Of a stretch of DNA of 42,232 nucleotides, positions 8,301 through 35,390 are shown piece after piece (position 1 is the first letter of the stretch; each line of letters begins with the position of its first letter). Made by a program: the position numbers and the translations under genes. The stretch comes from Sphaeroforma arctica JP610 (Eukaryota), in contig NW_014039762.1 of assembly GCF_001186125.1 (NCBI RefSeq), positions 1 to 42,232 on the forward strand, written 5' to 3'. The notes below the pieces were generated by a model that worked only from the letters and a program-made list of their open reading frames with translations, ran no database searches and was not told where the DNA came from.

Positions 8301-11300
8301 TGTATATCCGATATAACTGAACTTGCCATCCACTACACATGTATATTAAGAATATCTCGAGGCGCCACCGTATGTCCTTATATACAGACCTGGTTGCAAA
8401 GAGTCGTTGCACAGTCAAATTGGTACTATGAGATGACACCAATTGACCGGCATTCAACAACACGACATGCAAAGACACGTCAGCTGGCACCTTCATACAC
8501 ACACATCTAAGTGTCCCATCCCTTTATCATTAACCACCCTGTTATTCAGCCAACGTTAAGTAGAGCCTGGAGAGAACAAGATAACGATACCGTGCACGCA
8601 CACTACAAGCTCAAAGCGCCCGCTCACTGAAATATATGGATAACAGGTGAGGATGTCCCGATTCCCTAAGATGCGTCTACAAATAGATTCTATGAACCGT
8701 ACAGCTGTGTACGCAGGAATTCTCTGATTTACTAGGACGCGGTTGTACAAAAATGCTATTGCACTTGATATACATNNNNNNNNNNNNNNNNNNNNNNNNN
8801 NNNNNNNNNNNNNNNNNNNNNNNNNNNNNNNNNNNNNNNTATATATATATAAACATATGTATACATCGATCATTCCTCTGACATACGATGATGCAGGCGT
8901 ATTCGCAATCAGATGGCCGAACTCGCCCAGTAGGTAACTGCCTACTTTGACCATTGTTTCGTGCACAGGCGGCGAACTGAGAGCCTGTAAGATATACACG
9001 AGAGTGATTTAAGGGCCAAATAAGGTGGAATGAAAGTGAAATGCAGGTGACATATAGGCGAAATATGGAATGTTGTGCACACTGATTTGAGCAATTTACT
9101 CTGACATTTTAACGTTTTACCAGGCATTGAATATCACGTAGCGTGTACTATATGCCCCAGCCGTTGTGTTCAGCGCATCAACTGCTAGCACCGTATCTAT
9201 CACTTCTGTGGATAACGTATACACATGCAGACAAGACGTGCTCATGTCAAGCAATGGTGAACAGATGCAGACCTTTGTGAACCCGTTTGTTATAATAACT
9301 GACCATGGAGCTGTATACATGATTTGACAACCTATCACTATATCGCGACAATACTTTAGAAAGATATTATACACAATCAACCCGGACAGACACCAGATAA
9401 GACCGACTACTAGGGCGGCTGAAATGGCCGCATCTGGCAAAGTGATGTAATTGTGCATACAAATAAGTGCATACAACTAACCTGGAAGCAAACGCGGCAC
9501 GCATACTCCTGCACATCCTGACGGTTGGTGATGATTTGGATCACTCGTTGCCAGACCTGAAATGTGAGAAATTAGGACCAATTTTTCGTGTTCAGTATTT
9601 GGATTCCCAGTCCAAACTGATTTAAGCAGTGGCTATTTGAATTGTGTTAAGGATCACTACGACGTAAATTGATCAATGCGTGGTACCCACGAATTTGCAC
9701 ACGTCTGTCTACAAACGCTTCCTCACTTGCGACTTCACCTTCGCATTGGTGTAGCTCAGTCCAGAATCAATTTGAACCGAGTTGTAGGCTACCCGTGCTA
9801 GGTTGAAGGTCACATCGACGTAGAACGGATGCTCTCGTGATACCGACAATACTACACGCGTATAACATCACACACATATTAAGATATCGATATCACTTCT
9901 CACAGGTGCAGCTTAGGCACTTGACCTAAGACTGGCATAAACAACCCGCGCTATGAGAAGGAATACATAGACAGAACGGATGCTCTCGTGATACAGACAA
10001 TACTGCACGCGCACATAACATTATGTAGATATTCAGATACCATACTACACGCTTATAACATTACACACATATTCAGATACCACTTCTCACTTGGTGCCGC
10101 TCAGACACTTACCTCCAGACTGACATAGTCGCCGGCGACGCGGGTTAGGTTGAGGATCACATCGACATAAAACGAATAGTCTCGGGCCTCAGTCTCAGCC
10201 AGAATGGCAATGCGTAGCACCATTTCCTCGCGGATGATGTATTCTGTGAGGTGCCACAAATGATATATAATATTATATGATGTATTCTGTGAGGTGCCAC
10301 AAATGTTATATAATATTATATGATGTATTCTGTGTGGTGACACAAATGTTATATAATATTATATGATGTATTCTGTGAGGTACCACAAGTGTTATAAAAT
10401 ATCATATGATGTGCAAGTCATCCATGCATGTTCTGTGTCGCACGATCCCGATGCGTGTGTGCTCTATATACACAGCCCGTTGAGTGGTCGTGCCGAGCGA
10501 CCTGTACTTCTTGGTACTAGCTACAAGGGGTATACCGTATACCGGGTGCATCTACGCTTTAAGTCGGTAACAGAAAGACGATGCATGTCCCTAATTGGGC
10601 TGAATAGCGTTATACGAAAGGGGGAGAGGAGGGGGGGGGGATGTAAAACCCTAAAACCCTAAAAACCACTTGCCTGCGTGCTCTAGGAAGCCAACAAGCG
10701 CGGTGATGATGGTGACCGCATTCTCTGGGCCACACATCTTGAATAGCAGATCCAAGGCCCTGCCAGATGGGTAGAGAGTATTAGTGCGAGTGGGGGTTGT
10801 GGTATCACAGAGTCGGCAAGTACGTGATATGAGGCACCTGTCCTCAGAGAGATGTTCAGGGAGGATTTGTACTATAGCATTTAGAATGGTACTGTACTGA
10901 AGCCTTGAGACTCCAGAGGCTACCGATAGACGGCATTCGAAACAGAAGCTCATGCCGGCACAACACTCGCAGAATCACAGCCACGCAGTGGTCCACCAGT
11001 CACAATACTCGAAGTACAAAAAATAAACAGCAGTTTGAATCTGAAGAGCACTACATACACCCAACACACACACAAGTACCTACCTCCGTCGTACACTGAT
11101 ATCCCGCTCGAACTTGAGCGCCTGTATGATGTTGGGCTGGTGCTTGATGATGCCCTTCTTCGCAATCTCCAGCGAGCACAGATTGCACATGATGTCCAGA
11201 GCCATGTAGCGGGTGTTGGTCTCACGCACAGTCATGTACCGGCCCAGGATATCCACCGCCATCTCTGTGAGCTTCGCCTCAGTCTGCAGGTGGATAACTG

Positions 11301-12752
11301 TGTTCATGGCCTCGAACAGCACACTCTGGCGGCAGTTGTTGGTCTGCACAATCTGTGGGGTCGGAGCGGTCGCGGTCGGTATATAGATATATGGTTGGTT
11401 CATTTCTCCTATAACCTCATGTATTGCTATTATAAAATAACTATTTATAGTCCTCCCGGGGAGAGCACGGTACGCAAACAACCCATGGGTATGAGTTTTG
11501 CGTGACCGCCCTAACTGTGGCTATGGTATTGTTCAGGACAACTCCGAAACAGCGGCTATGCATGGCCATGGCTTTTAAATCGATATTTTTCTGTGGTTGT
11601 CGCTTGATTTGATTCATGTTCATGGGAATACAACACACCAAAGCAGGAGAACTACAGACAGTAGGTGTGGTGTAGGTGTGGTTGGGATAAGGTAGTGTTA
11701 CAGGCGGGTAATTGTCAGGTATTGTGTCGTCTTTGCATGCTACGACAGTATGGCTGCTAGATATGAAGTAGATTTTTTGTGGAAGAGGTATTATCTATGG
11801 GGCAGTAGACAGAATAAAAAGTATCGCGAGCCTTTGCTATCCCACTCATAGGAATACAGGGAACCCTACTTCTCACACTGACCAGTTCATTCTATGTCAA
11901 CATGTAATCTAGGTACAACTCAAGCTAACAAAACCAGTACTACAACTAAAAAAAACATGGATACTTTAATACAATACAATACAAGGTCGCGTACCCTGCC
12001 ATACTTTGACCACAGGAGTCTCTGTCCGTACGAGACCTAGACGGTAACGGCAAATGATATTTTACGCATACAACCATAAACCGTGAATTGGCAATACTAA
12101 TCCATGAAGGAATGCGGTCTGGACAGGACCTCTGCTCATTGACGCAGCCTCTATCTCTATACACGCACAGTGTATTTGAACACGTGATCAATGTCCCTAC
12201 CCTGACCAAGTCATTCTTTACGAAGATGCGGTCCAGACATGACCCGAGCTCCACCAATTGTACACATGCATCAAATATCGGATTAATATTTGACACTAAA
12301 TCCTTAACCGAATACACACACATGCCAATAAATTACAATCAAGCACCCCTCAGCCTTGCCCAGATCATTCTCTGCAAGTATGAGATCCAGACAAGAGAAC
12401 ACATATCCTCACACAAACGACTTTTAAACCAATACACAGACCGAATCTACAGACCATGCACTCACTAGACAAGCGCAAGACCTGAAGTCCTACCTTAACT
12501 AGATCGTTCTTGGCCAGTATGCGATCTAGACAGAATCTGAGCTCTTCCTTGACAGCAGCGTCAGTGGGTGGGGGGTATGTCTGGATTAATCGCAGGATCT
12601 TAACTTGGATCCAAGGAGCTGGCACCTGCGATAGTTAAAGAAAACTAGCTTTGTGTGAAGGAGAAATAAACCTGGATGTATCGTAGGGATGCATCTGAAT
12701 GGAAGAGCTAGTACTTTTTTGAAACATGATGAACTTGGGCCACATACATACG

Positions 12753-19110: not shown

Positions 19111-19851
19111 GGTTTTTAATGGTTTTATTAATTAATATCTTTTCTATTATACATATCAGATATTCGGACGAGGCCATTAAAAGGCCTGAGTAAAATACCA
19201 AACATAAAGAGCTGGTCTAGCTCTATTAATAGAACTTCATTTACTTTCCAACTTTATTTATATCTGAATACTTCGGTAGCGAGATGGCTCAACCGAATAT
19301 AGGTTTCTAAAGACTATTAACGTTACCTAGTTGATCCTCCGATCAGCCAACCAGATGTGCCAGTCTGATGAAGGCTAAGTCGGTAATTCTTGATAAGTGG
19401 CATGTTATTGGTTAAGACAATAACTAAGGACATCAAAAGTTTTTTATTTCTTTCATTTCTTTTTCTACAGATAGGATTTTATTCGCCCCAATGAAACATA
19501 CAATAGTTTCTAATAGAGCGACAACGAAACACTAAATAAAACCCCTTCGGCGGTGACAGTACTTAGAAAATTATATATCGGCAATGTCTCAGCCTCACAA
19601 TCCCTCAGAGTATTGCTGTTTTCACGAGGCATGCCTAACTTTACTAAATGTCTTATTTCGTTTATTTACTTTGATATTTTCACGATACTTAGAATTTACC
19701 TACGCGTTTATTTATTCTAAGGCGTTAATATCGCCTTGAGAGACCGAATCTTACAGCGACAGAGGGGTGAGTGGGTTTGTGCTGGCCATTGAGTTGAGTT
19801 GTTTTCCCAGGAAACCTCCAAGGTAGTCTGCGAATGGTCGCGTGGGGAGCA

Positions 19852-20779
19852 TGTAAAATTCGGTCTCCTCTAGGCTGACTATACGATACCAAGACGTTTA
19901 CGTTAATAAGACAATACGTGAAAACGTTAAAATACAAAATGTTAAAATAAGTTTAGCTTCAGCCCTTGGTAGTGAGCAAAAGATTAGGGGATTATAGACT
20001 GAGACTATTGTCTATATGTTCCGCTCTAATCACTCACTACTTCGGTCTAGATTTATTTATGTTTTAGTTACTAGGTATCATTTCATTTTCGTTACTCAGA
20101 CTAGGTATCATTTCATTGGACACATATTTTACATACCACGCCTCGAAACAATTATCTACTCAAAATACCAATAAATTATCTCTAAGTCCAACTTAAGAAA
20201 ATAAAAAATCAAATCAAAATACCAAGCTGGTGCAGTATATATCTGTACCTAAACCCCATCACTTGGTACCTAGCTCTCCATCCCATTTAAGGCTTTGACG
20301 GGCACATCTAGTTGGCTGGTTAGGAGGAATCAAAACCAGGTTGTCCTAAATTCTAACAACTCTGATCCTGTCCTTTTCTCAGTGGATTATCTTGCTCTGA
20401 GATTATTATCGAATTATACCATAGGTTTGTACCAACAACCATTTCATTTCTGAGGCCCTCTCTCATGGTACTCCCATTAATTAGAGATTCCCAAAGTGTC
20501 ATTTTCAGGTTTCAGATTTGTATCATTCCTATAATTTGTATCATTCTAAATTTCAGTGGTAAAAACCAACCTATATTTGGAAAGCCACCTAATTGTCCAC
20601 AGTAGAGTCTCATACTCTACTGAGTACTATCACACTTTCAGAATCTTGAGTATCTCAATTCTTGTTCATGTTCAAAACGTTAGACGTATTCCAGTATTAT
20701 AAGTATAACCGTTAATACGTTAGTACGTTTATAATATATGTTAATTGTGCAATACTATTAGGAACCCGCTATTTCTACA
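19852..20779 (-). repeat. 3' LTR (928 bp)
   Basis: TGTAAAAttcggtctcctctagg...ggaacccgctatttcTACA, a direct repeat of 27898-28815. I counted 8 mismatches in the first ~175 bp, plus small indels. Confidence 0.95.
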
Positions 20780-20797
20780 TAGCCCCACCCCCCTTCA
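20780..20797 (-). promoter_or_regulatory. Polypurine tract (plus-strand primer) of the LTR element
   Basis: Minus strand reads gaagggggggtggggcta immediately before the 3' LTR. Confidence 0.85.
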
Positions 20798-20960
20798 GCT
20801 TGAAAATTACAATGTTGGCTTATATGTGGTATTAGCACATAGACTCGAAAAGCTCACATGAATTGTACAAGCGAAAAGAAAAGAAACGGGTTTCGATCAT
20901 ATAACGGCCTCAATGCTTATGTTATATTCTCTTAGACAAAGTATACTTAGACGTTATATG

Positions 20961-22390
20961 TTACTCGGTCACTCTATTACGTTTGGGCTTTGGTCCTTGT
21001 GGTCCCCGATGGTGGATGGGACGTGCCTTAATGCCTTTTGGAGATACGTACATTCCATGCTGTTTAAAGCTGGGAATGTATGATGTCTGTTGATAGATCT
21101 CAACCACGTCGGGTTGCTTGTCCGATGGTAAGATTGCTTCTGCATCAGCCTTATTTTTGTGTAAGCGTTTGCGAAATTTCTTATTAAAGGCATTTAGTAT
21201 ATCCGGATCATCAAATGCTGATAGAGGAAGATTATACTGTGCTCCATCGGCGAACTCCGTAGTGTAATATGACATATCCTCATGTTTGTACTTCCCTAGA
21301 ATCTTTTTAAATTCGTAAGACATAAGGGGTGTATTAGCTTCACGTGTGCGACGAAGGATGATCACTGTCGTCGGGATTCGATGCGACCCGATATTTAAGG
21401 CACCAGAGCCGTCATCGTTGTTAACTTCATGCGTTCCGCTCTTCTTATCGGCCACTGAGATCACAAATGGTCCAATATATTTAGCCGTAAGCACAGTTGT
21501 ATCGGAGTTGCGAGCCATAATGTTGACTATATCGCCTACCTCAAACTCGACTATTTTCTTGGTATCTTTCCATCGCTTTTGTCTCTTCTTGAGAGCGATG
21601 TCCTTCATCTCCTTTAAGCAAGGATAGACCACATATCTGGTCCGACGCAACTTCTCTAATCATGGTAACACATGGTCATCTTGAGACTCCTTGTTGAAGG
21701 GGATCTGTAATTCACTATAACGGCCCCGGAAATAGTGAGCGGGTGTTGTACCAGTGACTGAATCAGGGAATTCGTTCATCTGTGTCTGTACCCAGTTGAT
21801 TGAGTAAGGCCACATGTCAGCATCATCAAGGAGTGCTGCTCTCGCATGAACTCCTTCATCTTTCTGTGTCGTACCTCGTTCGCACCTTGTGTCTGAGGCT
21901 TGTAAGGTACACCCATCTTATGGCATGATCCCGCAACGAGTAACAGTGTCGTCATGACATCTCCTGTAAACTTACTACCGTTGTCGGAACATACAATAGC
22001 TGGCCAGCCGAAATCTGCGAAGCACTTACATATGCACTCAGCCACAGTTTGTGTCGATTTGTCTTTCAGCGGATACAAAACATTATATCTTGATGCGACA
22101 TCAAACACGTGACAGACATACTTATCCTTCGTGTGTTCGGACGTGGGTAGCTCAACCAAATCAATGATAACCCGGCGCCACGGCTCGTCTTCTGATACGC
22201 TGCGTAAAGGTGCGTATCCGTAGCGCTTGATCCGGTTAACTTCGCCGTTGTTACATTCGTGATACACCTGAGATATATATTGCTTGAGGTTTGGGTGTAC
22301 GATTCCGTACCTCTTGCAATCTTTCTCAGTGCTAACCTTATCCATGTGCTTAAGAGCATGATTTTGTCTTAACCACTTCAGAATCGCCTC
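20961..22390 (-). pseudogene. DDE integrase with degenerate HHCC zinc finger, GPY/F motif and C-terminal chromodomain-like module
   Basis: HALKH...HECNNG (last Cys lost), PWRRVIIDLVELP, DVASRY, VCSDNGSKF, PYKPQTQGANE. After a frameshift near 21835: WPYSINWVQTQMN...TGTTPAHYFRGR, then a TGA at ~21660, KYIGPFVI, and YEFKKILGK...YYTTEFADG...AFDDPDILNAF (21177-21317). Confidence 0.9.
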
Positions 22391-22822
22391 ATGTGATTTA
22401 CTTGTTACATCGAAATCAGGAGGTGAGGATTCCACCGCGTCATCACCTGGACTCGAAGACTCGTCTTGCCCAATCTCGCCTAAAGCTTCTACATCGTGAA
22501 TCCGACTAATGTTTGATCTATCCAATAGTTGGGTCACATGATCATATACCTCGGGAAAGTCATTCATCAATTGCTTAAGCAATCGAGTTTCTGCTTGGTA
22601 TGCAGTTTCCCTGTCAGACCGTATTTTGTTGTAGAAGGCTTTCGCTAGTGATGCGCTCCTCTTTGATTCCTTGGAATTTGGCTGTATCTCAGTTACACAT
22701 ACTGCAGGTGCTTGTGTTGTCCCAGTCTCTGATTGAGACTTAGTATTCAAGAGTGGAATCTTGGATTCCTCAACTTTCTGTTTGAAAGTTTTGGATGGTG
22801 TCCACTTGGTTGTTCCAACTGG

Positions 22823-23224
22823 ACCTATTCGACATATAATAGTATGTCGCCAAGGCGTCTTTTGGATTGCACGGATACCCTGGTAGAGAAAAGTATCTAC
22901 CTTTCTATCCACATAGATCGGCTCACATTGTATCATTGAGATCAACTGCGGTAGCCATTTATCTGAGTGTCTTAAAGGACAACACAACGTGATGGTAGCA
23001 TCTTGAATATGTACATAATTCAGCAACTGTGGTATTAATAACCATGGAGGATTTGCCCAGGCATTTTCGAGAGACAAATCAAACTGGAATCCATCTCCTT
23101 TCGGATGTTCCAGTGTCCGGTACCTCGGCAGTAGTGCATTGTGATGAGCAGCAAACATATCTATGGTATGTGGTCCATATATGTTGTCAGCGATTTTAAA
23201 CCACTTAGGATTGACCATCCAATC
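22823..23224 (-). CDS. Phage Dam-like DNA N6-adenine methyltransferase domain within Pol
   Basis: Uninterrupted ~134-aa segment: DWMVNPKWF, GPHTIDMFAAHHNA (SAM-binding-type D-x-FA motif), DGFQFDL, WANPPW (catalytic NPPW at 23042-23053), and LCCP..SDKWLPQL. Same motif order as the methyltransferase domain of DIRS1 retroelements and phage Dam (PF05869-type). In frame with the RNase H C-terminus upstream and the integrase downstream. Confidence 0.88.
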
Positions 23225-23269
23225 CGTAGCTAGTACCTCCCTAACCATCTTATTAAAGTCTGGTACGAA

Positions 23270-24470
23270 GCGAGACAACATGTCGGGTAAGTGATTGTGA
23301 ATACCCGGTATGTGTGTTACGATCGTGTCATGCCACCGACTGACTAACTGTGAGTTAGGTTCGTGTCCTTTAGGTGTTGCAATGATTTCTGATCACATAG
23401 CACATTAAAGTGTGTGCCATATAGATCATCCTTAAAATGAGTGAGTGCAGTAACAATAGCCAAAAGCTCTTGTTGCACGGTTGGGTAATTGATCTGAGGC
23501 GAATTCATAGCTCTGCTAAAGAATTGTACATATCTCGGTTTCCCATCAATCATTTGATACAGAACGCCCCCGAGTGCCATGTCGGACGCGTCTGTTGCTA
23601 CCATGAATGGAATACTATCCTTTGGTGGCTGGACTACTGGTGCCTGCTGAACCACTGTTTTGGGCTGCTTAGATGCGTCATCACATTCTTTGGTCCACAG
23701 TGCGCCTAGTTTGCCTTGATGACATCTCAAATGTCCAAAGGGCTTTAAATAACTTGCCAAATGTGGTACTCCGTCAGACAAAAAGTTGCCGAATCCGCAC
23801 ATGCGGTTGACATCCTTACCCGTGGTAGGAGTTCTCCAGTCTAGCAAGTGGTCGACCTTCCCGGGATCGATCATGATTCCATCCCCGGATACTCGGTAAC
23901 CCAACAGCTGAATCTCGTTACCACCGAAGTGACATTTCTTACTGTTGACCTTAAAGTTGTGCTTGTTGAGTCTATCTAGAACCTCTCGCACAACCTTGTT
24001 GTGCTCCTCCTTGGTTTTGATGAATACCACAATGTCATCAATGTATACTTGTACATTGTCCATGTCTCTAAACAAGTCTTGCATAATTTGTTGAAAGAAC
24101 GCAGGTAACATGTGTAACCCAGATGGGGCACCTTTAAACGAATATTGCTGACCCTCCCAGGTAAAGGTGAAATACTTCCGATGTGGTCGGTAGATCTTCA
24201 TCTGGTGGTAGTCCTGCGTCAGGTCGATAGTGGAAAATATCTTAGCTCCCTCCATGCGCCTGAGCGGTTCGTTTATCCTTGGTAAGTGAAAATTGTGTGT
24301 CGGTATCAAAGCGTTAATTGGGCTCATATCCAAACACACTCGAACTTTCTCCAATGTCCCGTCAGAGTTGAATTGGTCGACGGCTAAAAGCGCTAGGTTG
24401 ACGGGAGTCAGCTAATAGTTGACTGCGATCACTTCGTCATCTAACCATGCTTTAACTTGCTCTCGTACGA
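23270..24470 (-). pseudogene. Reverse transcriptase and RNase H of Ty3/gypsy type
   Basis: RVCLDMSPIN, FSTIDLTQDYHQ, FTWEGQQYSFKGAPSGL, VYIDDIVV, KCHF...LLGY. RNase H: VATDASD, YPTVQQELLAIV, CDQKSL, and after a frameshift/deletion near 23340, RWHDTI..HIPGIHNHLPDMLSR. Confidence 0.95.
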
Positions 24471-24749
24471 CCTGCTCATGACGCCATGCAACATAGTTAC
24501 GTGTAAGACACTTAAGCTTCGAGAAATCTACTCTCGTCAGGTCTAGACTAACGTATCCGTTATTGAACTTGAACTTAGCCCAGTCCGTGATCCGAATCTT
24601 GTCATTCTCGAAAATCAAGTCCTTGATTTTCTCTGTAAAGTGAGGGATCATCCCCTTCACAGTCTTTGAAGGTTTATATACCGGCTTCAACAAATTGTCG
24701 TCCGACTGATCCTTCTGTGGTCCAATGTTAGTAGGTAAGCCTGTAATTG

Positions 24750-25060
24750 TTATTCCTAATGACAATAAATCACCCATACCTACTATGAGATCATAGTCTG
24801 GTGAAGTGTTACATATGACTGCCTTAGTAATTGTAGTACGTTGGTCTGTCAATGTAAACCTAAAATCGATGGCCATTTCTCTGCAAGTGATCTCCCTTTC
24901 ATCAGCTAATTTCAACATAGTTGGCTCTGACTTACGAGTAACGTCTGTGATTTTACAGAATCTAGAGAATATACATGAAATTTGCGAGCCCGGATCTAAC
25001 AACGCTTTTATTTCATGTCCGTTAACTCGTACGTCAAGGATTACACGCTCGTCTTGAGGT
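24750..25060 (-). pseudogene. Retropepsin-type aspartic protease
   Basis: VRVNGHEIKALLDPGSQISCI...YDLIVGMGDL (D-P-G in place of D-[ST]-G). Same frame as Gag and RT. Confidence 0.85.
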
Positions 25061-25098
25061 GCGTCCTATTGTCTTAGTGACAAGACCCGGTATGTTTG

Positions 25099-27865
25099 TC
25101 ACTTGACTTCAACTTTTGGTTTCACCTTGCACGTATGCTTGTGGTAACCTCCAGTTCCGGTACAGTCGGCACACTTCTCGATAAAGTGCTTACACTTTTC
25201 TGCGTGCCTTCCATTCCATCTGCCATTCGGCTCCTGTTGGGTCATTCGCCAATTGCAATCAGTCTCACTACAGTTCTTGACCTTCCTATTCCTGGGCTTA
25301 GGGTTGCCTGCCAGCGGTCCATTTCTGATGGTCTGGTTACCCTTAGGGATGACATTGTTCTTGTGGCTTTCAGAAGCATTTGTATTTTTGTTCTTATTGC
25401 CACCCTTGTCACCCCCTTTGTTTACCTTCTGACCTTCATTCATGGACTAAGAGTCTCGACCATTGCCTGATTCCCCGGTAAGATTGCCGTCGACATTCCT
25501 CTGAGCATTAGTAACTTTCACCACGGAACTAGGGCGTTTGGTAAATGTCTGATCCGCTCTCGTGTAAAATTCTGCCCAGGTTAAGTCCGCTAGCTTCATT
25601 ATACCGTAGGTAGGTCCCTCAATGGAGATCTCTCGTACCCTATCCGGGTAAGATTGATGCATATCGGCGTACATAATCTCTTGATCTCTCCTATGTAGGT
25701 TTGACTAAAAGATTGTCTGCACCCATAGTACACACATGGATAGCTTATCAGGTGACATCTCCTGAGTTTGAGCCCGTGACATGTGTGTGTCCAACTTTAA
25801 TAAGTAGTGGGACACCGGCGTTCCTTCTTCCGGTGGTATCATGATCGATACAAGCAATTCCGGTCGAGGGTCCGTCGAAAATAAGTGGACGATCATCTCA
25901 CTTTGCTCATTCCACGTTTTCAGCTTAGTGATCGCTTGTTTCGCCTTCTCTAACTTGTTATACTTGTAAGAGGACAGCTTAAAGCTCTGCTGCGCTTCTT
26001 CGAACCATAGGTTCTTTCGTAGATTGGCTGTAAGCATAATCTGTCCAAACTCTTTCAAAGACCTAGATAACAACGCCAGACTGCTAGTATCGATTGGATC
26101 CTTTCGGTCTTTTCGATCAGATCTGTATGTCGTTGGTAGTTTACTTATGTCCTTTACAAACTTCTTGCCTTCCACAGCCTTCTCGGTCTGAATCACTCTC
26201 AGTTCTGAATCAATCTTAGTCTGGAGATGCGTAGCCATTGTCATATAAAAACTAGCGGCATCAATCCTACCTAGATCCATCGCTTCGAGTGAAGCTGCCC
26301 CAGCCTTGTTCATTTGAACAGTGAATTCAGCAATTTTCAGATCACTACTAGAATGATCTGATCCCTTCTTTTCTGATTGCATTTGACCATGCAGTCAGTT
26401 ATCTGCCTCATCCTTTGATCCATCGATCTGTTCAATGTTAGTGAACGCTTCGGATGGGGCAGCATCTTTCTTCGTCTTTGAGATAACCGCTGGGGGCGAA
26501 CTGTCTTCCGATGACGAAAATAATTTTCTCGCTTTCACCTGATCAGGTTTCGGCTCTTCGGTCGGTCTGTCCTTCTGAAATACCTCTGGGGCATTCTGTG
26601 GATTCCTTCCGGTAATGGATTTGGATTAGACTCTTGTTCAGATGCCATTCGCGACACTACTGTTGCGTCCAATCCAGGCGAGGGTTGATTTTCGGGTGAT
26701 GAAGATCGGATTCTGTTTGCCTCTCCATTGCCTGACAACATCTCGAACGCCAATATGGCTTGATAGAGTGCCAAATGGTTTGATATCAAGTCGGGAAGAT
26801 CTACCAGAAGATCCCGAATTGCGTACCAAATTAAGTATGCAAAGCTTCCATCGCTCCTAGTTCCGAATACCTCCGGCAATATCTTTTGAAACTGACGGAA
26901 AAGTTTGCGTGCTTGCTTACCGTCGTCAGTTTTCTTTAGTTTTAGCCGATTGTAATACCTATTATCCTTAAACAAATCGTAACCAAACTTTCTTACCGCT
27001 GCATACATAACATACCTCGGTGAGATGGTACCATCTGGTTTGGTCTTCAATACGTCCGGAAAGAACGTTCCATACGTATTTCGAAACAACCATGCCCTGT
27101 TGGCCCGCCGTCGGATCAACTCTCGTTGATTCTCCTCCTGAAGATCAATCTGTGCCTGATAGGAATTACCCAGATCAAAGTTCTGTCGCCAAGCCGGTCG
27201 GAGTTCCTGCTGTCCGAATCGTCGTCCTGACTGTGAAATGTCTGGGCCACATCATCCGGACCTATATTCACGAATCGCAGTTGTTCTTCCGATACATTGA
27301 TTTGGGGTTGATCCAAAAGTGCTGGTGGATTCTACTTCGAGTCATCCTCCCCTGATTCATTCTGACTTTGATCCTTCGCTGCGGCTTGCTTTTTCTTCCG
27401 CTGCTTAGTAGGTCTCAAATCATGAACCATTGGTTGGTAGTCCTTCAGGAAGGCTCTCATATCCCTTGCTATCATGTGATACGTAGGATCTCGCCTACGT
27501 GCTTTGCGCGTATCCACTGGTGGAGATGGTACATCTGATCCCAGTGCATGTCGGAGTTCCTATGAAGTTGAGTTGTCCGATGAATGCGTTTTCTCGGCTT
27601 TTCCCTTTCGAGATCTCGCCTTCTTCGCAGGTGGCTTCTGTGGCTCTGTAGTCACATTACCTCCAGATGCACCTATACCCGAGTCAGCCAACTTCTTACG
27701 TTTTTGTTTAGTCAGAATTGGTACTCTTTGTCTCGGTGTGATCTCTGTTACGTCAGAATCCACTGATGATGCCGGGGGTGTTTTCAGCTTTTTATCGCCT
27801 TCAGTAAACCAATTTACTTTTGCAGCCTTAGCTACATTCGCTGCCTTATTGTTTCCTTTCGTCAT
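25099..27865 (-). pseudogene. Gag-like region with long N-terminal extension and atypical Cys/His knuckles
   Basis: ATG 32 nt downstream of the 5' LTR. ORF fragments 27560-27865, 27332-27517 and 27116-27316 share one frame. Fragments 25705-26382, 25447-25674 and 25099-25443 share the PR/RT frame. C-terminal CADCTGTGGYHKHTC knuckle. Gag identity is inferred from position. Confidence 0.7.
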
Positions 27866-27897
27866 AATATCGATAGCGTATTATAAACTTAAAAATA

Positions 27898-28815
27898 TGT
27901 AAAAGTCGGTCTCCTCTAGGCTGACTATACGATACCAAGACGTTTACGTTAATAAGACAATACGTTAAAACGTTAAAATGCAAAATGTTAAAATAAATTT
28001 AGCTTCAGCCCTTGGTAGTGAGCAAAAAATTAGAGGATTTTAGACTGAGACTATTGTCTATATGCTCCGCTCTAATCACTCACTACTTCGGTCTAGATTT
28101 ATTTATGTTTTAGGTACTAAGACTAGATATCATTTCATTGGACGCATATTTTATATTTCACGCCTCGAAACAATTATCTACTCAAAATAACCAATAAATT
28201 ATCTCTAAGTCCAACTTAAGAAAATAAAAAATAAAATCAAAACACCAAGCTGGTGCAGTATATATCTGCACCAAAACCCCATCACTTGGTACCTAGCTCT
28301 CCATCCCATTTCAGGCATAGACGGGCACATCTAGTTGGCTGGTTAGGAGGAATCAAAACCAGGTTGTCCTAAATTCTAACAACTCTGATCCTGTCCTTTT
28401 CTTCAGTGGATTATCTTGCTCTGAGATTATTATCGAATTATACCTACTAGTTTGTACAATCATTCTATGTNNNNNNNNNNNNNNNNNNNNGACCACCTCT
28501 CATGGTAGTCCTCATTAATTAGAGATTCCCAAAGTGACATTTTCATGTGTCAGATTTGTATCATTCCTATATTTTGTATCATTCTAAATTTCAGTGGTAA
28601 AAAACCAATCTATATTTGGAAAACAACCTAATTGTCCACAGTAGAGTCCCATACTCTACTGAGTACTATCACATGTTCAGAATCTTGAATATCTCAATAT
28701 TCATGATCAAAACGTTAAACGTATTACAGTATTATAAGTATAAACGTCAATACGATAATACGTTTATAATATACGTTAATTGTGCAACTACTATTAGGAA
28801 CCCGCTATTTTTACA
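27898..28815 (-). repeat. 5' LTR (~918 bp, contains 20 N)
   Basis: TGTAAAAgtcggtctcctctagg...ggaacccgctatTTTTACA, with a 7-bp terminal inverted repeat TGTAAAA/TTTTACA. Confidence 0.95.
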
Positions 28816-31229
28816 AACAGGCCACAAAAGTGGAGTAAATTTGTTTAATGTTTGGGAAACCTAGGGTATTTAGTGCCCGTGATGATAGCTGCTACTAGGA
28901 TGAGTGCTGAAGTATAGCGTTCAAACAGGGAGTACAGCGCATCTTTCCATATAGGCGGAGCCCAGGCAACAATGTTCAGGCCATCAGTCGGTTGCGGGAG
29001 TGTCGCCAGCTAAAGCCATGGAGCCATAAGCGCGGAAAGAGGCGATACTCAGGGACAATGGCTACAACCAGGGATTTTGTAAACTTCGAGGGATATTTCT
29101 ATGTTTTAAACTATGTTATATCAACTAAAATACAATTTAAATCAGTTAGGATTTAGCAGTGGTAGCTTGTGTAAGAATGATCGGGACTGCCTCTTGGTAA
29201 GAGTCTTAATATCCTCGATCACACAGGACATACCTCTAGCTGTTCTTTATTGAATTATTTTCACTAGAAGTACTAAGTGTTCACGACCACATGTCATTTG
29301 TAGATAGACATAAGAACGTAAGTCAAGTTAATATATTAGCTAATATAAATAAAGTTCTATCTAAAGAAAAGTTAAAAAAACGAAAAGACTTATTGGATTT
29401 TGGAGATTGGCGGGAAGACCAAAACCTGTAAGTAGTAGTTCAGAAATTATAAAATTTAGTTTATAATATCTTACATCTACTATCGTCTCAAATAGGTCCA
29501 AGTAAATGGGTCCTACCAAATACTCAGGCTAATGAAGCCATCAAAGTGAATTTAGAACACTTTGGAAATATTGGAAAACAACTTGTCTTAAATACAAATA
29601 ACACCCAATGTGTTATCTCATTTGATCTAGATATTTTAGACTGACCGGAGGCCGTATTTCTACAATTTCATATGTCTGGCGAGGTTGATCCCTGGTATTC
29701 CGTGAGAAAGTGGGAACCCCAAATATTTAGAGCGTTTCGGCTTGGCATGTGTGGACGCCATCTTCAGAAGGAGGTAGCGTGTGTTCCAAGGTGCCACGCC
29801 TTGCAACTACCTGGCGTGATTACTACGGTATATAAGTGACAGGCAATGTGTCATAGCGGCTTGGTATGATTATAATATATTTAAATAAATGTATTTCTAG
29901 GGTAGAAAATTTTGGTTTAAGAGGAGATATCGAAAAATAGAGTAGATCAGTTCTCTGCAATCACGTATATTGGCTCTGGTTCACTGAACAACTTAAATTT
30001 TACTACTGATTCAATGGTTTCTTGTACTTACATAAGTGCGCTATATGCTACATATGAAAAAGTGACCCCACCAACCTAATGCTATGGATAACACTGCTAG
30101 CCTAGTGCTAGGTTAGTTGGTTCCATCAATCGCACAATTTACTACAAAACCCTAAAGATGATGAGTTTGTATGATTCTTATCCTTGATCAATTTTGTGAT
30201 GGGAATTGATCAACAATTGGTACAAGACGAGTACTATTGCCTAGCGAGAAAGGGTCAGGGAAATTTGTTCAGAAGTGGTGATTCCAGCGAGGTAGATTCA
30301 GAGAAGTCTACCCAGAAGTGGATCGTGCGGCCTGAGATCGAAGTTCTTGCTATCGTACACGTTCCATTTTTTTTAGTAAAAAAAGTGAATGACTAAACCA
30401 ACCACTCTAGTACTAGGATAATTTAAAACTCTAGTACTAGTAAGAATACAAAAAGACTATACCGACCGCAACTTGGACTTTTTGGTGAAATGGGGGAGCC
30501 ACTATGTTCCAGTTGAAAGCCTCCACGAATGACCCGTTGTACGAGTATAAGTGCAAAAGACAAATACTTTTATCTTTTAAATCCTCATTGTGAAAACCAA
30601 GTGGTGAAAGGAGAATAACAACACTAGTTTGTGTTTGTGGAGTACTTGTCGAAACAACGGTTTCATGAGGTAGCATGTTTGGTAGGACCTGTGCTGGCAG
30701 ATACCTACGCAAGGGCTGATATACATTGCAATATTTTGCCTTTAGCAATGAATCTTATGCAAGATAAGTGAAGTAGACATTAGGATAAAGACAGAATGAT
30801 AGTAGATAAGTAGAACGTTCGTATGAATTAAAACAGGAGGTTAACGTTGATTGTTATGTATACGTAGACCTACAGCTCAGGAAGAACCATTGTCAGGAGG
30901 TGTGGTTCGTTGAGTCAAGTGTCAGGTTCTAAACGATACTTCCATTGTCACACATGTGACAGCGCTACCTAAGGCACTGTCATAGGACAGCAGGTAATGG
31001 GATAGGTTGGAAGCGTACAACCGGCAGCACCACATAAAGGGTTGTCAAGAAAAACTATAAAAGGCAGATGCACTGGCTAGTGTCAAGGATAAGATAGCAG
31101 TTGTGTAACCAACTTTATTACACCTGGACAACAGTGACTTGCTGGCGTGTATCAGGTCATGGGCTGAATCAAGGTGGGTTTAGATTTAACTAAATGGACA
31201 TCATGCACAAGAAAAGCGTCTACGGGTGT

Positions 31230-33560
31230 CGCCGATATGGGTCTACTGGATTCTTTGTGTACTACAAGTGTCAGAGAAGGTTTGCGTTGAGTGCTGTGTT
31301 TAGTGGTGACTGAGATATCATTATAACCAGAACTTCAAATGATATCTGATATGGAAGGATAATGTGTTTTGCGTGGTACCATAAAGTGAGTTAGCTGTAT
31401 TTACAGTATCGTGTTTAAAACTAACAGAGAACACAACATCAGTACGTCCTGATATACTGTGCTGCTGAATATTTTCCTGAAGAACAGGAATATAAAGTTT
31501 GCGATAGAAGTGAGGACCGTCCTTATACACTCAATGAATAGAGCTAGTAAAGGCCTGTGATGTACCCCATAAAGTGCTGCAGCAACTCTTGGCAGACTTT
31601 GAAACCATTGCATATGACTCTAAGTATATGCAATATCTTATCTTACCTGACGTGAATCTTCAGAAATCTGAAGCCATACCGCGGTATGCGAGTTACTTCG
31701 ATAAGGGCACTGTAAAGTTAAACCACTTAAGCCAAAAGTAAAGGCGTGGGTGGCGGCAGGGGTAATGGAGAGGATAGATAAGTGTTCAGAGTTGTGTTCA
31801 GCACCGCATCTAGTGTACGAGAAACCAAGTGGCAAGCCTGTGACTGTAGATGGTTGGCGCTGCTGCATTAACCTCAAACATGTAAATACTCGATTGCGAG
31901 CGGAGTCATACTACAAACCTACGTAGCGAGAGCGTTGAAATGCAGACGGTGGGTAGCACAGTAGATTCAAGAAAGTATTTGTCCTTCGTCACACCTGAAG
32001 GTCGGTTCGCGTTTGTAGGATTGCCTTTAGGTCTTAAGGAGGCGTCTTGGTGTTGCCAACAGATGCTGGGGAAATGTGTTTGCGGGACTACAAGAGTGGT
32101 TTGTTACATAGATGACATATCGTTCGCCCAGGATGACGCGCGTTAACACTCGTTCTGTCTGCTGGCACTGGTGTCTTGCTGTGTCCATCATGATTTACAG
32201 CTAAGGTTTTACACGTACAGTGTGGCTCAGTACATGAAAAAAATGGTCATTTTAGGCAGATTTGTAGACTACAGAGGGTCAAAGATTGACATGGGACGTT
32301 CAGAGACGTCACTTACTCTTAGTGAACCAACGTCTAAGGACTTGTTAAATAGTGATACCGCACTGTTGGATGGTGGTTAAGGTATGTCGCAAATTTTGCG
32401 CGCATACTGGCCCGCTCTCTGCCCTGTTACAGAACAAGGCGCTACAAAAGCTTTCGGGGCACTCAATGAGTTAGCCGTGCGGTACTGGCAGAGCCGCGGC
32501 CAGATGCTTGTGAATCTGCGGGTGTGTACGGAGTTATGCCTGTCATCAGAACAGGTGTCCTACTAACCCTCTGCTTCTTCGCTTCGGGGTATGACAGTGC
32601 CCAGCTAGCATATCACATCACCGACAAGAAAGCTTTGGCTCTAGTCTATGAGATTTTGAAGAATAGAGTCCTTCACCGGGTAATTCTCCCTGCCCGCTTG
32701 TACTCGAGTAAGTCACGCGCGACCTTTCCGGATGATGTCCGAGGTCGACGTATGTGACGATACTATGATGTCCTTCGGAACTTCGACATTGAACTGATAC
32801 ATGTTACGGGGGTATAGATAATACATTTTGTCTCGCCTGTGTATGCCTGTGGGCCCAAGCTTGCGGGTAAAGGGGCAAAGGCTGGACTTCACCGTGTCTT
32901 GGGCGGAGGCGGTACTAAAGGAGGTCAAATCTGATCAGAAAAAGTGTACATTGGTCTATCTTTATTGGCCATCGGCTGCTTGGCTTCCACTCTTGTGCCC
33001 TCTTCTTACAGACGAACCTCTGCACATTCCAAGTCGGGTGGGATGGGCACTCGTCTACCCGCTCGCCTTCGTCCGTCATACTCGCTTGCTGTCTCGTCCC
33101 ACGTCCGCGTGTGGTCTCTCCGGAGCTGTAGCACAGTTGCGTTTTTTTTTTGCTTCAGATGTAAACTTAGGGGGAATAGTTCGGGGCAGAGTAATTATAC
33201 GTATGGATGAGTGTCGACGTATGTATCAACAGCAGCAGGGCAACAAAGCTCGTTGATACCTGTTGGTACTTGTCAGATACGTTTTTGACGAGATATTGCG
33301 CACCATAAGTTGTGATCACCATGGTTTGTACCAGCTGTATCGACATAGCAGGATACCCCTGTTAAGCAAGTTTTCGACGTTAAAGTCAAGTAATTACGTT
33401 TGTATCGCACTTACTTGGACGTCTTTCTTGCGGATTCGGTGGAGAATGCCTCTGCGGTGGAGACAGCCCGTTTTCTACGGGTGTCAGGAGACTACCAGGT
33501 GTGACTCTTCCGTGAATGAGAGGGGCGTTATCCTGCTTGCTATTGGTCTTGTGGGTGCTC
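31230..33560 (+). mobile_element. Highly degraded LTR-type retrotransposon pol relic (PR-RT-RH-MTase remnant, possible IN)
   Basis: GLLDSLCTTSV (~31240, protease-like). VKAWVAAGVM...DGWRCCINLKHVN (31738-31890). LSFVTPEGRFAFVGLPLGL...CYIDDI. RNase H remnant FFASGYDSAQLAYHITDKKALALV. Then CTLVYLYWPSAAWLPLLCPLLTDEPLHIP, and weakly LAIGLVG. No LTRs recognised. Confidence 0.8.
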
Positions 33561-35390
33561 ATGTTGTGTGGGGATTCCCACGGATACACGGATTGCTACA
33601 TACTGGTACCGACATTGCTTGGCTACTGACCTAGTGTTACTTTCTGTAGTCATTTTTAGCGATAGATTGTCAGGAGATGGTCTTGTACAGACCGAAGATA
33701 ATATATTTTTTGTGTCACACGAACACACAGTCAGAACAGTATTACAATATGCTTTGTTGTCATGTACTCGGGCAGTTGTTTCTCTGTGACATACTTTAAT
33801 ATCTTCGATCTCGTTGCGATCGATTGAATACGCAGACTTCATCGTAGTGTTGTCGGTCGAATTTTCCGCTTTCCCAGTTGATGTGATCTATTGCCTTGAC
33901 TTCTCTTGAGCACAACGACACTTGTGGCAACTGACAATAGTCATTATTCATGTTCTACGTACAAATTGTGTGTAGGTAGCTACATTAGAATCATATGTTT
34001 GGTTCTCGTCCCATGTTAAGGGAGTACAATGGGATGAACTATTTGGATCATTTTCGCAGTTATTTGTTAGGTATGGAGTCATCTAGACACTACTCATGTC
34101 GCTATGGACTCGGTTCGATTCGCACGAAGCTGCCCAGGGGTAATTGGATCGATGGGGATATACACTGAGGTCATAGCTTTAAAAAAGAGCTGTAGTTATG
34201 TCTCAGATATTTGGTTTGTTATAGTAATTGTCGTGGATAAATTATACTTTTGTAATGTAAGACACAGGTACGTTACAGTATTTATGGCCTTATCAGTCGT
34301 TATGTGACTCATTGATTAACTTTATTAGTGTAGGTGCTATTGTGCATGATAGCATAAAAAGAGCTATATAACCAATTCATCCCTTATACGGCTTTTGGAA
34401 TAGGGACGCACGAACCCTTTTATGTTTTAATTATACTGAAGTTGTTAGCTATTGCAACTTTATTTATTTTTATTACTTTTTGTTGGCCTCTCGCACTGGT
34501 TGCAATCGTCTTCACGTTTGTCGTTGCCTTCTTGGCGTTTGCAATCATCTATACAATTTTTATTTTGACTCCGATACAAGCTTCATCGTCATTCACACCA
34601 ATATTTAAAAGTTACATACGGTGCTTTCGCTCCCAAGTCTTCAAACTTCTGCTTCCCCAGTATTGTCAATGTCGCCCTTTCGATAGCCACACACTCAACC
34701 GTTTTCTTCGTCTCTACTTCCTTCCCATTGTCTCGGCGTACCATCAATGTCGTCACGGTAGACACCATCATAAACTTTGATGCGTACAGTGCTCGGAACA
34801 GCAGGACTGTTTTATATACACACTCCAGTCTATAACTAACATTGTTATCTGGTGGTCTGTCACGTCACACCCCTCACTGGGACCGTCGGAGTTGTCGCAG
34901 TCTACAACGGCCGCAGATTCAATCCTGTCCTCAATAAACTTCTCAAAGTTCCGAATGAATGTCATTACGTACGTATAGTCCGAAAAGAATTGGTTACTAA
35001 AATATTACTTGTCGACTGCGCTTACCCCGGTCGATCTGCAACCAATGTCAGGCCACTAGCTCGTGTATATTAAATCGATAGACGTACTTCTCTAGAGTAA
35101 CAACTTACGTCATGCACGCAATGTTGATCTGAAGGAAAATAAACAGTATTGCTTCGAGAGCAAATCTGCCGAGAATACGCCCACTCTAAATGTGTTTAGA
35201 TTGCAGAAAACAGCAGACACCGTTTCAGGTGAACATAATAACGGCAATTTCGCATTGTGTCAATCATTTTACTATTTTAGCTATGTAGTAAATTTATCTG
35301 CACTTTTCGCTACATTAACCATGAACTCTCAGTTAACTCAGTCTGTATTTGCTACAAATTTCGATGTTCTACTTATGTTGAATCTTACCT

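What the first reader, a model, noticed from the sequence alone, without database searches (positions are those of the whole stretch)
31230..33560. Second, older and divergent retroelement relic appears to keep the same RT-RH-MTase order
Seen: on the opposite strand ~2.4 kb from the first element, decayed PR, RT (YIDD) and RH remnants are followed at ~32870-33030 by KGWTSP (shifted frame), then AEAVLKEVKSDQKKCTLVYLYWPSAAWLPLLCPLLTDEPLHIP. This aligns by eye with NAWANPPW-LLIPQLLNYVHIQDATITLCCPLRHSDKWLPQLISMIQCEPIYV of the first element and with the DIRS MT pattern P.W....W.P.L. Its RT start VKAWVAAGVM parallels VKAWLDDEVI. I see no obvious nucleotide identity, so it is a different family. Inference: the MTase fusion is old and was retained through diversification, which argues for function.
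Basis: partly seen in the sequence, partly recalled or inferred. Interest (0 to 1): 0.7.

Follow-up and report, generated by a model that had tools for sequence, protein, structure and literature searches.

The report
Dead Gypsy relic with half methyltransferase
This is an old, broken jumping gene of the Gypsy type that still carries half of an adenine-methyltransferase-like domain right after its RNase H, a design already described in a 2026 preprint, and it likely gained that domain separately from the intact element next to it.

Summary
Real, but of a known kind. The + strand holds a decayed Ty3/Gypsy-type RT and RNase H followed by a Dam-like methyltransferase (MT) remnant: one collinear alignment over 31735-33031 scores 294, against at most 51 in 15 shuffles. 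An MT profile built without the relic hits it at E 9e-8; its only other hit in the window is element 1. The protease and KGWTSP matches are not above chance. No integrase, tyrosine recombinase or terminal repeat reached significance; an integrase remnant is only suggestive. It is not an ordinary DIRS element: RT-RH scores 245 on a Gypsy profile and 128 on a DIRS profile. The design (DAM-LTR) is described in bioRxiv 10.64898/2026.05.21.726589. The inference 'one old fusion retained' is not shown: in both trees the relic falls outside element 1's clade and its MT keeps DIRS-type residues. That favours a separate capture, but AU tests do not reject shared ancestry (p 0.47 and 0.38). A dead relic cannot itself show function.

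The parts
31243..31257 (+). Possible aspartic-protease active-site remnant (LLDSL); by eye only
   Evidence: Best local hit of the protease columns, but 216 of 300 shuffles score as high; no protease family in Pfam for these frames
31708..32445 (+). Decayed reverse transcriptase with thumb/connection, Ty3/Gypsy type; YIDD at 32105-32116; stops, frameshifts and a deletion of about 17 profile columns near 31960
   Evidence: Pfam RVT_1 E 0.0024; profile alignment; 21-27% identity to 22 of 23 Gypsy-type rows (one row 16%), 13-20% to 9 DIRS-type rows
32473..32839 (+). Decayed Gypsy-type RNase H, ending in ILSRL (32825-32839)
   Evidence: Profile score 59.9 for 32473-32649, 0 of 300 shuffles; end of the domain aligned; sister copy matches 32723-32791
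32877..32905 (+). Possible worn NPPW catalytic motif across a frameshift; the MT's N-terminal half is deleted just before it
   Evidence: Joined to the MT hit only at a low frameshift cost; alone 102 of 500 shuffles as high; spacing; sister copy has 375 nt where the window has 171
32903..33124 (+). C-terminal half of a Dam-like (PF05869-type) adenine methyltransferase domain; significant core 32909-33043; ACGLSG at 33107-33124 aligns with the domain's last strand
   Evidence: HMM E 9.3e-8; 0 of 300 shuffles; alignment; sister copy matches 32963-33007
33125..33634 (+). Same frame stays open for about 170 more codons with one stop; likely the Pol linker after the MT; no family recognised
   Evidence: 197 codons with one stop after 33040, 11 of 1000 shuffles; no relevant hit in Pfam, PHROGs, PDB sequences or the atlas
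33710..34250 (+). Possible integrase remnant; suggestive only
   Evidence: 6 of 200 shuffles for 33650-34400 and 3 of 300 for 34110-34300, both in ranges picked by eye; not above chance over 33050-34600; sister copy matches 34058-34115
19851..28815 (-). Element 1, the neighbouring near-intact DAM-LTR: LTRs 19851-20779 and 27897-28815, PR-RT-RH-MT-integrase
   Evidence: LTRs 842 matches, 50 mismatches; Pfam Asp_protease_2, RVT_1, RT_RNaseH, Dam (E 1.3e-4, under the curated cut-off), rve
22793..23260 (-). Complete MT domain of element 1, used as query and structural reference
   Evidence: 1105 relatives at E up to 0.001; model pLDDT 90.9; best solved folds are N6-adenosine methyltransferases, PCIF1/CAPAM first

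Best explanation
The stretch is a dead, internally deleted Ty3/Gypsy-type retrotransposon whose RNase H is followed by the C-terminal half of a Dam-like methyltransferase domain; it likely belonged to an old DAM-LTR family with an integrase downstream, and likely gained the domain from a DIRS element separately from element 1's lineage. Shown: RT-RH-MT order, Gypsy-type RT-RH, loss of the MT's N-terminal half, stops and frameshifts, and a sister copy with the same order. Inferred: when alive it would have made one Pol polyprotein (PR-RT-RH-MT-IN) and copied itself by reverse transcription and integrase-mediated insertion; the MT would have acted on the element's own RNA or new cDNA, as the preprint proposes but has not shown (its enzymes gave no 6mA in E. 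coli). Today it would make nothing active. Odds that it is a DAM-LTR relic at all: about 0.8; separate capture against shared origin: about 60 to 40.
For: Collinear RT-RH-MT alignment 294 against at most 51 in 15 shuffles; 3 stops and 7 frameshift marks in it. MT hit E 9.3e-8. RT-RH: Gypsy/DAM-LTR profile 245, DIRS profile 128; DIRS rows split off at 100/100. A single-copy sister contig of 6.7-7.2 kb matches at four places in the same order, among them the RNase H end and the MT half, in 4 of 4 runs, so the junction is older than the split of the two copies. The frame runs on about 170 codons past the MT; 42 of 44 non-LTR RT-RH-MT proteins end within 100 residues, whereas 22 of 23 integrase-bearing rows run 43-263 residues on to the integrase (several rows are near-duplicates). 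For a separate capture: none of the 25 best single-sequence matches to the MT half is LTR-type, the best integrase-bearing one ranks 44 and element 1 ranks 113 of 152; the relic keeps a W found in 121 of 126 non-LTR MTs and 2 of 22 LTR-type MTs; its five nearest rows in the MT tree are DIRS-type; its RT-RH groups with Gypsy rows outside element 1's clade (bootstrap 82).
Against: No integrase above chance in any scan over the whole downstream stretch: 98 of 200, 80 and 17 of 200, 41 of 300 shuffles; no Pfam rve hit. No LTR pair (74 of 100 shuffles as high). AU tests do not reject the relic as sister to element 1's clade (RT-RH p 0.465 with 2000 resamples; MT p 0.384), nor inside element 1's own family (p 0.098). 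The relic is a long branch (1.8-2.1 changes per column), and DIRS-type residues may simply be ancestral. Its group score is only +5 bits (range -13.5 to +20.3), between the core clade (-13.6 to -67.2, 17 rows) and the non-LTR mean (+35). Its best single RT matches are DAM-LTR proteins (124, 111, 111; ordinary Gypsy up to 89).
Confidence: 0.5

Rival explanations
1. One reading: a DAM-LTR relic that shares one ancient capture with element 1 and branched off before that clade changed its MT; the fusion was then kept through diversification.
For: Same place of the MT (right after RNase H) in the same genome; best single RT matches are DAM-LTR proteins; AU tests allow it (p 0.465; p 0.384); one capture is more parsimonious than two.
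Against: Best trees of both RT-RH and MT put the relic outside the clade; MT residues are DIRS-like; the position after RNase H is also the native DIRS order and recurs in independent captures, so position does not show common origin.
Confidence: 0.3
2. A Gypsy-type RT-RH joined to a DIRS MT without an integrase: either a chimera that used a tyrosine recombinase, or a DIRS fragment that once landed behind a Gypsy RNase H and was copied passively.
For: No significant integrase or LTR; MT half is DIRS-like; the preprint mentions chimeras and nested insertions in Euglena.
Against: No recombinase signal on either strand (115 of 150 and 58 of 100 shuffles; 57 of 100), though the profile rests on 4 partial sequences; the frame continues past the MT; integrase-like pieces at 33710-34250; the RH-MT order is shared with a diverged sister.
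Confidence: 0.12
3. An ordinary DIRS element, hence a candidate donor of the MT and not a second example.
For: RT-RH-MT is the DIRS pol order (PMC3266345, passages); the MT half is DIRS-like.
Against: RT-RH fits the Gypsy profile far better (245 against 128), and the DIRS profile's best hit stops at the end of the RT core; tree separation 100/100; no inverted terminal repeat and no recombinase.
Confidence: 0.03
4. The MT match is chance in decayed DNA behind an ordinary Gypsy RNase H.
For: Pfam and PHROGs do not call the stretch; the significant part is only 42-45 residues; the motif piece is not significant.
Against: E 9.3e-8 in a scan of the whole window, the only hit besides element 1, at the expected place; shuffled windows reach at most 1.1 bits against 20.6; the same bases are among the four spots conserved in the sister.
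Confidence: 0.02

Closest known systems
DAM-LTR retrotransposons, ichthyosporean lineage (Fernandez-Moreno et al., bioRxiv 10.64898/2026.05.21.726589; whole main text read; supplements closed)
   Same: Ty3/Gypsy-type RT-RH with a Dam-like domain behind it. Element 1 groups with a named Abeoforma whisleri protein (P0012), so element 1 very likely belongs to this lineage.
   Different: The relic is dead, has only the C-terminal half of the domain and no demonstrable integrase or LTR, and falls outside that clade in the best RT-RH and MT trees. The main text names one ichthyosporean lineage; the supplementary trees, which I could not see, may hold this family.
DIRS1-like tyrosine-recombinase retrotransposons (PMC3266345, passages read)
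   Same: RT-RH-MT order in pol; the relic's MT half is most like MTs of non-LTR, DIRS-type proteins.
   Different: RT-RH is Gypsy type; no recombinase or inverted terminal repeat found; the frame runs on well past the MT.
PCIF1/CAPAM clade of N6-adenine methyltransferases (PMC4738411, passages read)
   Same: That review puts DIRS MT domains in the PCIF1 clade; the model of element 1's MT finds PCIF1/CAPAM structures first (4 matches at E up to 0.001).
   Different: The review holds DIRS MT copies to be likely inactive; element 1 keeps NPPW, while the relic has lost half the domain.

Membership tests
DAM-LTR (Ty3/Gypsy with Dam-like domain) | RT-RH of Ty3/Gypsy type | tested here: met
   Profile 245 against DIRS 128; on the Gypsy side of a 100/100 split
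DAM-LTR (Ty3/Gypsy with Dam-like domain) | Dam-like domain within pol | tested here: met
   C-terminal half, E 9.3e-8, directly after RNase H; N-terminal half deleted
DAM-LTR (Ty3/Gypsy with Dam-like domain) | DDE integrase downstream | tested here: inconclusive
   Not above chance over 33050-34600; 6 of 200 and 3 of 300 in ranges picked by eye
DAM-LTR (Ty3/Gypsy with Dam-like domain) | Long terminal direct repeats | tested here: inconclusive
   No pair above chance; best candidate 31081-31171 with 34229-34311, 6 of 100 shuffles; decay could have erased them
DAM-LTR (Ty3/Gypsy with Dam-like domain) | Aspartic protease upstream of RT | tested here: inconclusive
   LLDSL at 31243 by eye; 216 of 300 shuffles as high
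DAM-LTR (Ty3/Gypsy with Dam-like domain) | Intact NPP catalytic triplet | tested here: not met
   Reads WTSP then a frameshift; not significant alone. Expected in a decayed copy, so it says nothing about the live family
Ichthyosporean DAM-LTR clade (element 1's lineage) | MT and RT-RH fall inside that clade | tested here: inconclusive
   Outside in the best trees; inclusion not rejected (p-AU 0.465 and 0.384)
DIRS1-like | DIRS-type RT-RH | tested here: not met
DIRS1-like | Tyrosine recombinase ORF overlapping or following pol | tested here: inconclusive
   None found, but the profile came from 4 partial sequences and the DNA is decayed
DIRS1-like | Inverted terminal repeats and internal complementary regions | tested here: inconclusive
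   No inverted pair above chance (70 of 100 shuffles; list)
DAM-LTR (Ty3/Gypsy with Dam-like domain) | Raised 6mA and transcription of copies | not testable with these tools
   No methylation data; only assembled contigs could be laid

The most novel reading that the evidence does not exclude
The relic marks an extinct DAM-LTR lineage that captured a DIRS methyltransferase independently of the described ichthyosporean lineage, so the same host genome saw the same domain captured twice at the same place in a Gypsy pol: a further origin beyond the five lineages named in the preprint's main text.
Probability: 0.4. Interest if true: 0.45.

Novelty: new member of a known kind. Interest (0 to 1): 0.27.

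Why it matters
It shows that DAM-LTRs in this host are not one recent family: an old, now decayed family with at least three diverged copies had the same RT-RH-MT junction. If it is a separate capture, repeated gain in one host would support the idea that the domain pays off where the host uses 6mA; if it shares ancestry with element 1, it pushes the fusion far back. It also shows that ORF-level Pfam screens can miss such relics (Pfam does not call this MT). It does not make the enzyme's substrate or activity testable; element 1's complete domain is the better object for that.

Tried and rejected
Word search with element 1's MT among proteins of 295-942 residues: 0 of 48 candidates. Word search with the relic's RT+MT frame among proteins of 687-2000 residues: 1 of 2790 candidates at E 8.4, an ordinary Gypsy Pol, so no intact relative of the relic's family was found; shorter proteins were not searched. 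Atlas: no usable hit for the MT piece, only low-score unnamed clusters for the following frame. A cytosine-methyltransferase reading of 33125-33634, from recalled motif spacing, was dropped: no hit in Pfam, PHROGs or PDB sequences. Two by-eye integrase placements (33300-33520 and 33930-34250) were tested; neither passes outside hand-picked ranges. Attempts to collect more DIRS recombinases found no loci. No RNA holder listed; this is no evidence on expression. No tRNA gene in the window. Look-ups of earlier findings by place and by sequence were blank. The wide structural search was not run.

Full report
Setting. The window is eukaryotic: it has pieces of an alpha-adaptin gene and a TPR gene and many TA repeats. 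Element 1 lies on the minus strand between LTRs at 19851-20779 and 27897-28815 (842 matches, 50 mismatches) and encodes protease, RT, RNase H, a Dam-like domain and an rve integrase. It groups with a named Abeoforma whisleri protein (P0012) in both the RT-RH tree (83/90) and the MT tree (90/62), so the host is likely an ichthyosporean; this is inference, the host was not identified.

What the relic holds. I wrote a frameshift-aware aligner and scored it against dinucleotide shuffles. A Pol profile built from 18 DAM-LTR database proteins gives one collinear alignment from 31735 to 33031, through RT, RNase H and into the MT: score 294, at most 51 in 15 shuffles, with 3 stops, 7 frameshift marks and 137 skipped profile columns. 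The breaks are real: one contig covers 30500-35300 with 0 differences in each of 4 runs; these runs may include the window's own source. That the stretch is one unbroken contig also means no near-identical copy exists. There is no nucleotide similarity to element 1.

The methyltransferase remnant. A search with element 1's MT gave 1105 relatives at E up to 0.001, of which the best 150 were returned. An HMM from 151 database segments plus element 1, with no relic sequence, has two hits in the six frames of the window: element 1 (E 2.8e-52) and 32909-33043 (20.6 bits, E 9.3e-8, model positions 82-126 of 174). In 20 shuffled windows the best hit was 1.1 bits. Pfam and PHROGs do not call the piece. 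The N-terminal half is not found (174 of 300 shuffles as high), and KGWTSP plus SWA across the frameshift is not significant alone (102 of 500). From the RNase H end to the motif the relic has about 22 codons; 78 intact proteins have at least 71. On the model of element 1's domain (pLDDT 90.9) the missing part is the first two helices and strands with the conserved G29, D34, F36 and A37; that these bind SAM is recalled, not tested here.

Sister copies. Laying contigs at 80% likeness shows, in 4 of 4 runs, a second single-copy contig (6733-7245 nt) that matches at 31103-31138, 32723-32791, 32963-33007 and 34058-34115 in the same order, with 6 of 36, 15 of 69, 8 of 45 and 7 of 58 letters different. 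Between the RNase H end and the MT half it has 375 nt against 171, room for the missing half; my count of these offsets does not give one open frame, so the sister is likely decayed too. A third contig matches the RT start (31786-31826). I saw only these anchors and 30-letter loose ends, not the contigs. So this is an old family, and the RH-MT junction predates the split of two copies.

Gypsy or DIRS. On RT-RH alone the Gypsy/DAM-LTR profile (18 proteins) scores 245 and a profile of 44 non-LTR RT-RH-MT proteins scores 128, its hit ending at the RT core. I call the latter DIRS-type from their domain content and their separate clade (9 of them, 100/100); a recombinase is seen in only one full row (P0155) and three fragments. 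The relic lies on the Gypsy side. The protease is not above chance. An integrase is not shown: 98 of 200, 80 of 200, 17 of 200 and 41 of 300 shuffles score as high over the whole downstream stretch. Ranges picked by eye give 6 of 200 and 3 of 300, and the sister's fourth anchor falls in that range. The frame after the MT stays open for 197 codons with one stop (11 of 1000 shuffles), more like a Pol running on to an integrase than a DIRS pol (42 of 44 end within 100 residues). No recombinase was found with a thin profile, and no direct or inverted terminal repeat.

One capture or two. For two: none of the 25 best single matches to the MT half is LTR-type, and element 1 ranks 113 of 152. The relic keeps a tryptophan present in 121 of 126 non-LTR MTs and 2 of 22 LTR-type MTs; W-P occurs in 60 of 126 and 0 of 22. 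In an MT tree of 53 rows (17 core, 5 other LTR, 30 non-LTR of which 10 were picked as close to the relic and 20 at random, and the relic) its five nearest rows are non-LTR. In RT-RH trees it falls outside element 1's clade (the second left out the 9 DIRS rows and P0062). For one: neither placement is significant (p-AU 0.465 and 0.384; even inside element 1's own family 0.098), the branch is long, both trees used a model without site mixtures, retained residues may be ancestral, the group score is intermediate (+5 bits, range -13.5 to +20.3), and the best single RT matches are DAM-LTRs. I put it at about 60 to 40 for a separate capture.

How it most likely worked. Shown: the anatomy above. Inferred from the family: one Pol polyprotein, reverse transcription and integrase-mediated insertion. 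Proposed in the preprint and unproven: the domain lays 6mA on the RNA-DNA intermediate and the host enzyme AMT1 maintains it; DAM-LTR copies carry more 6mA and are more transcribed in two ichthyosporeans, but the expressed enzymes gave no 6mA in E. coli. Element 1's domain is structurally closest to the RNA cap methyltransferase PCIF1/CAPAM, as an earlier review held for DIRS MTs, which it thought inactive; an RNA substrate or a binding role therefore stays open. The relic itself would be inert.

What is known. Searches of the held library: five terms gave the preprint and PMC5890265 (listing only); 'DAM-LTR' and 'ichthyosporea, LTR retrotransposon, 6mA' gave only the preprint. I read its whole main text; its supplements are closed and may show this family or a second ichthyosporean lineage. 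PMC3266345 and PMC4738411: passages only. Earlier notes of this scan report similar elements in other genomes; they are unchecked and give no support here.

Verdict. A real second example, decayed and of a kind described in 2026. The open and mildly interesting point is whether it is an extra, independent capture. Interest 0.27.

Noticed in passing
window 28820-29800: A very high-copy short repeat sits between the two elements: thousands of short contig pieces lie on it, with summed depth up to about 2000 times the single-copy level, and joints that skip about 604 nt (29060-29665) suggest one small element nested in another. No protein family was found in it.
   Followed up: partly
window 22793-23260 (-): The predicted fold of element 1's complete MT finds the cap-specific adenosine methyltransferase PCIF1/CAPAM first among solved structures (E 1e-4, TM 0.55-0.65), ahead of any DNA methyltransferase in the list; it keeps NPPW. 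A capped-RNA substrate is worth testing.
   Followed up: partly
window 19851-28815 (-): Element 1 is itself broken into several ORFs across PR, RT-RH, MT-IN and its tail, and its LTRs differ at 50 of 892 aligned bases, so it is not a fresh insertion. Two intact sister-family Pol proteins exist in the database (P0001, P0002; 52% and 47% identity).
   Followed up: partly
P0062 (database protein): A 2144-aa protein with endonuclease, Dam-like, RT, RNase H and integrase zinc-finger domains, the Dam-like domain lying before the RT: another order than in the elements here.
   Followed up: no
window 30098-30420: An inverted repeat of 52 nt (71% complementary, 219 nt apart) with slightly raised contig depth nearby; possibly a small decayed MITE.
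   Followed up: no
window 4801-5133 and 11080-11520 (-): Pieces of an alpha-adaptin gene spread over several kilobases (Pfam Alpha_adaptinC2 and Adaptin_N); ordinary host gene.
   Followed up: no
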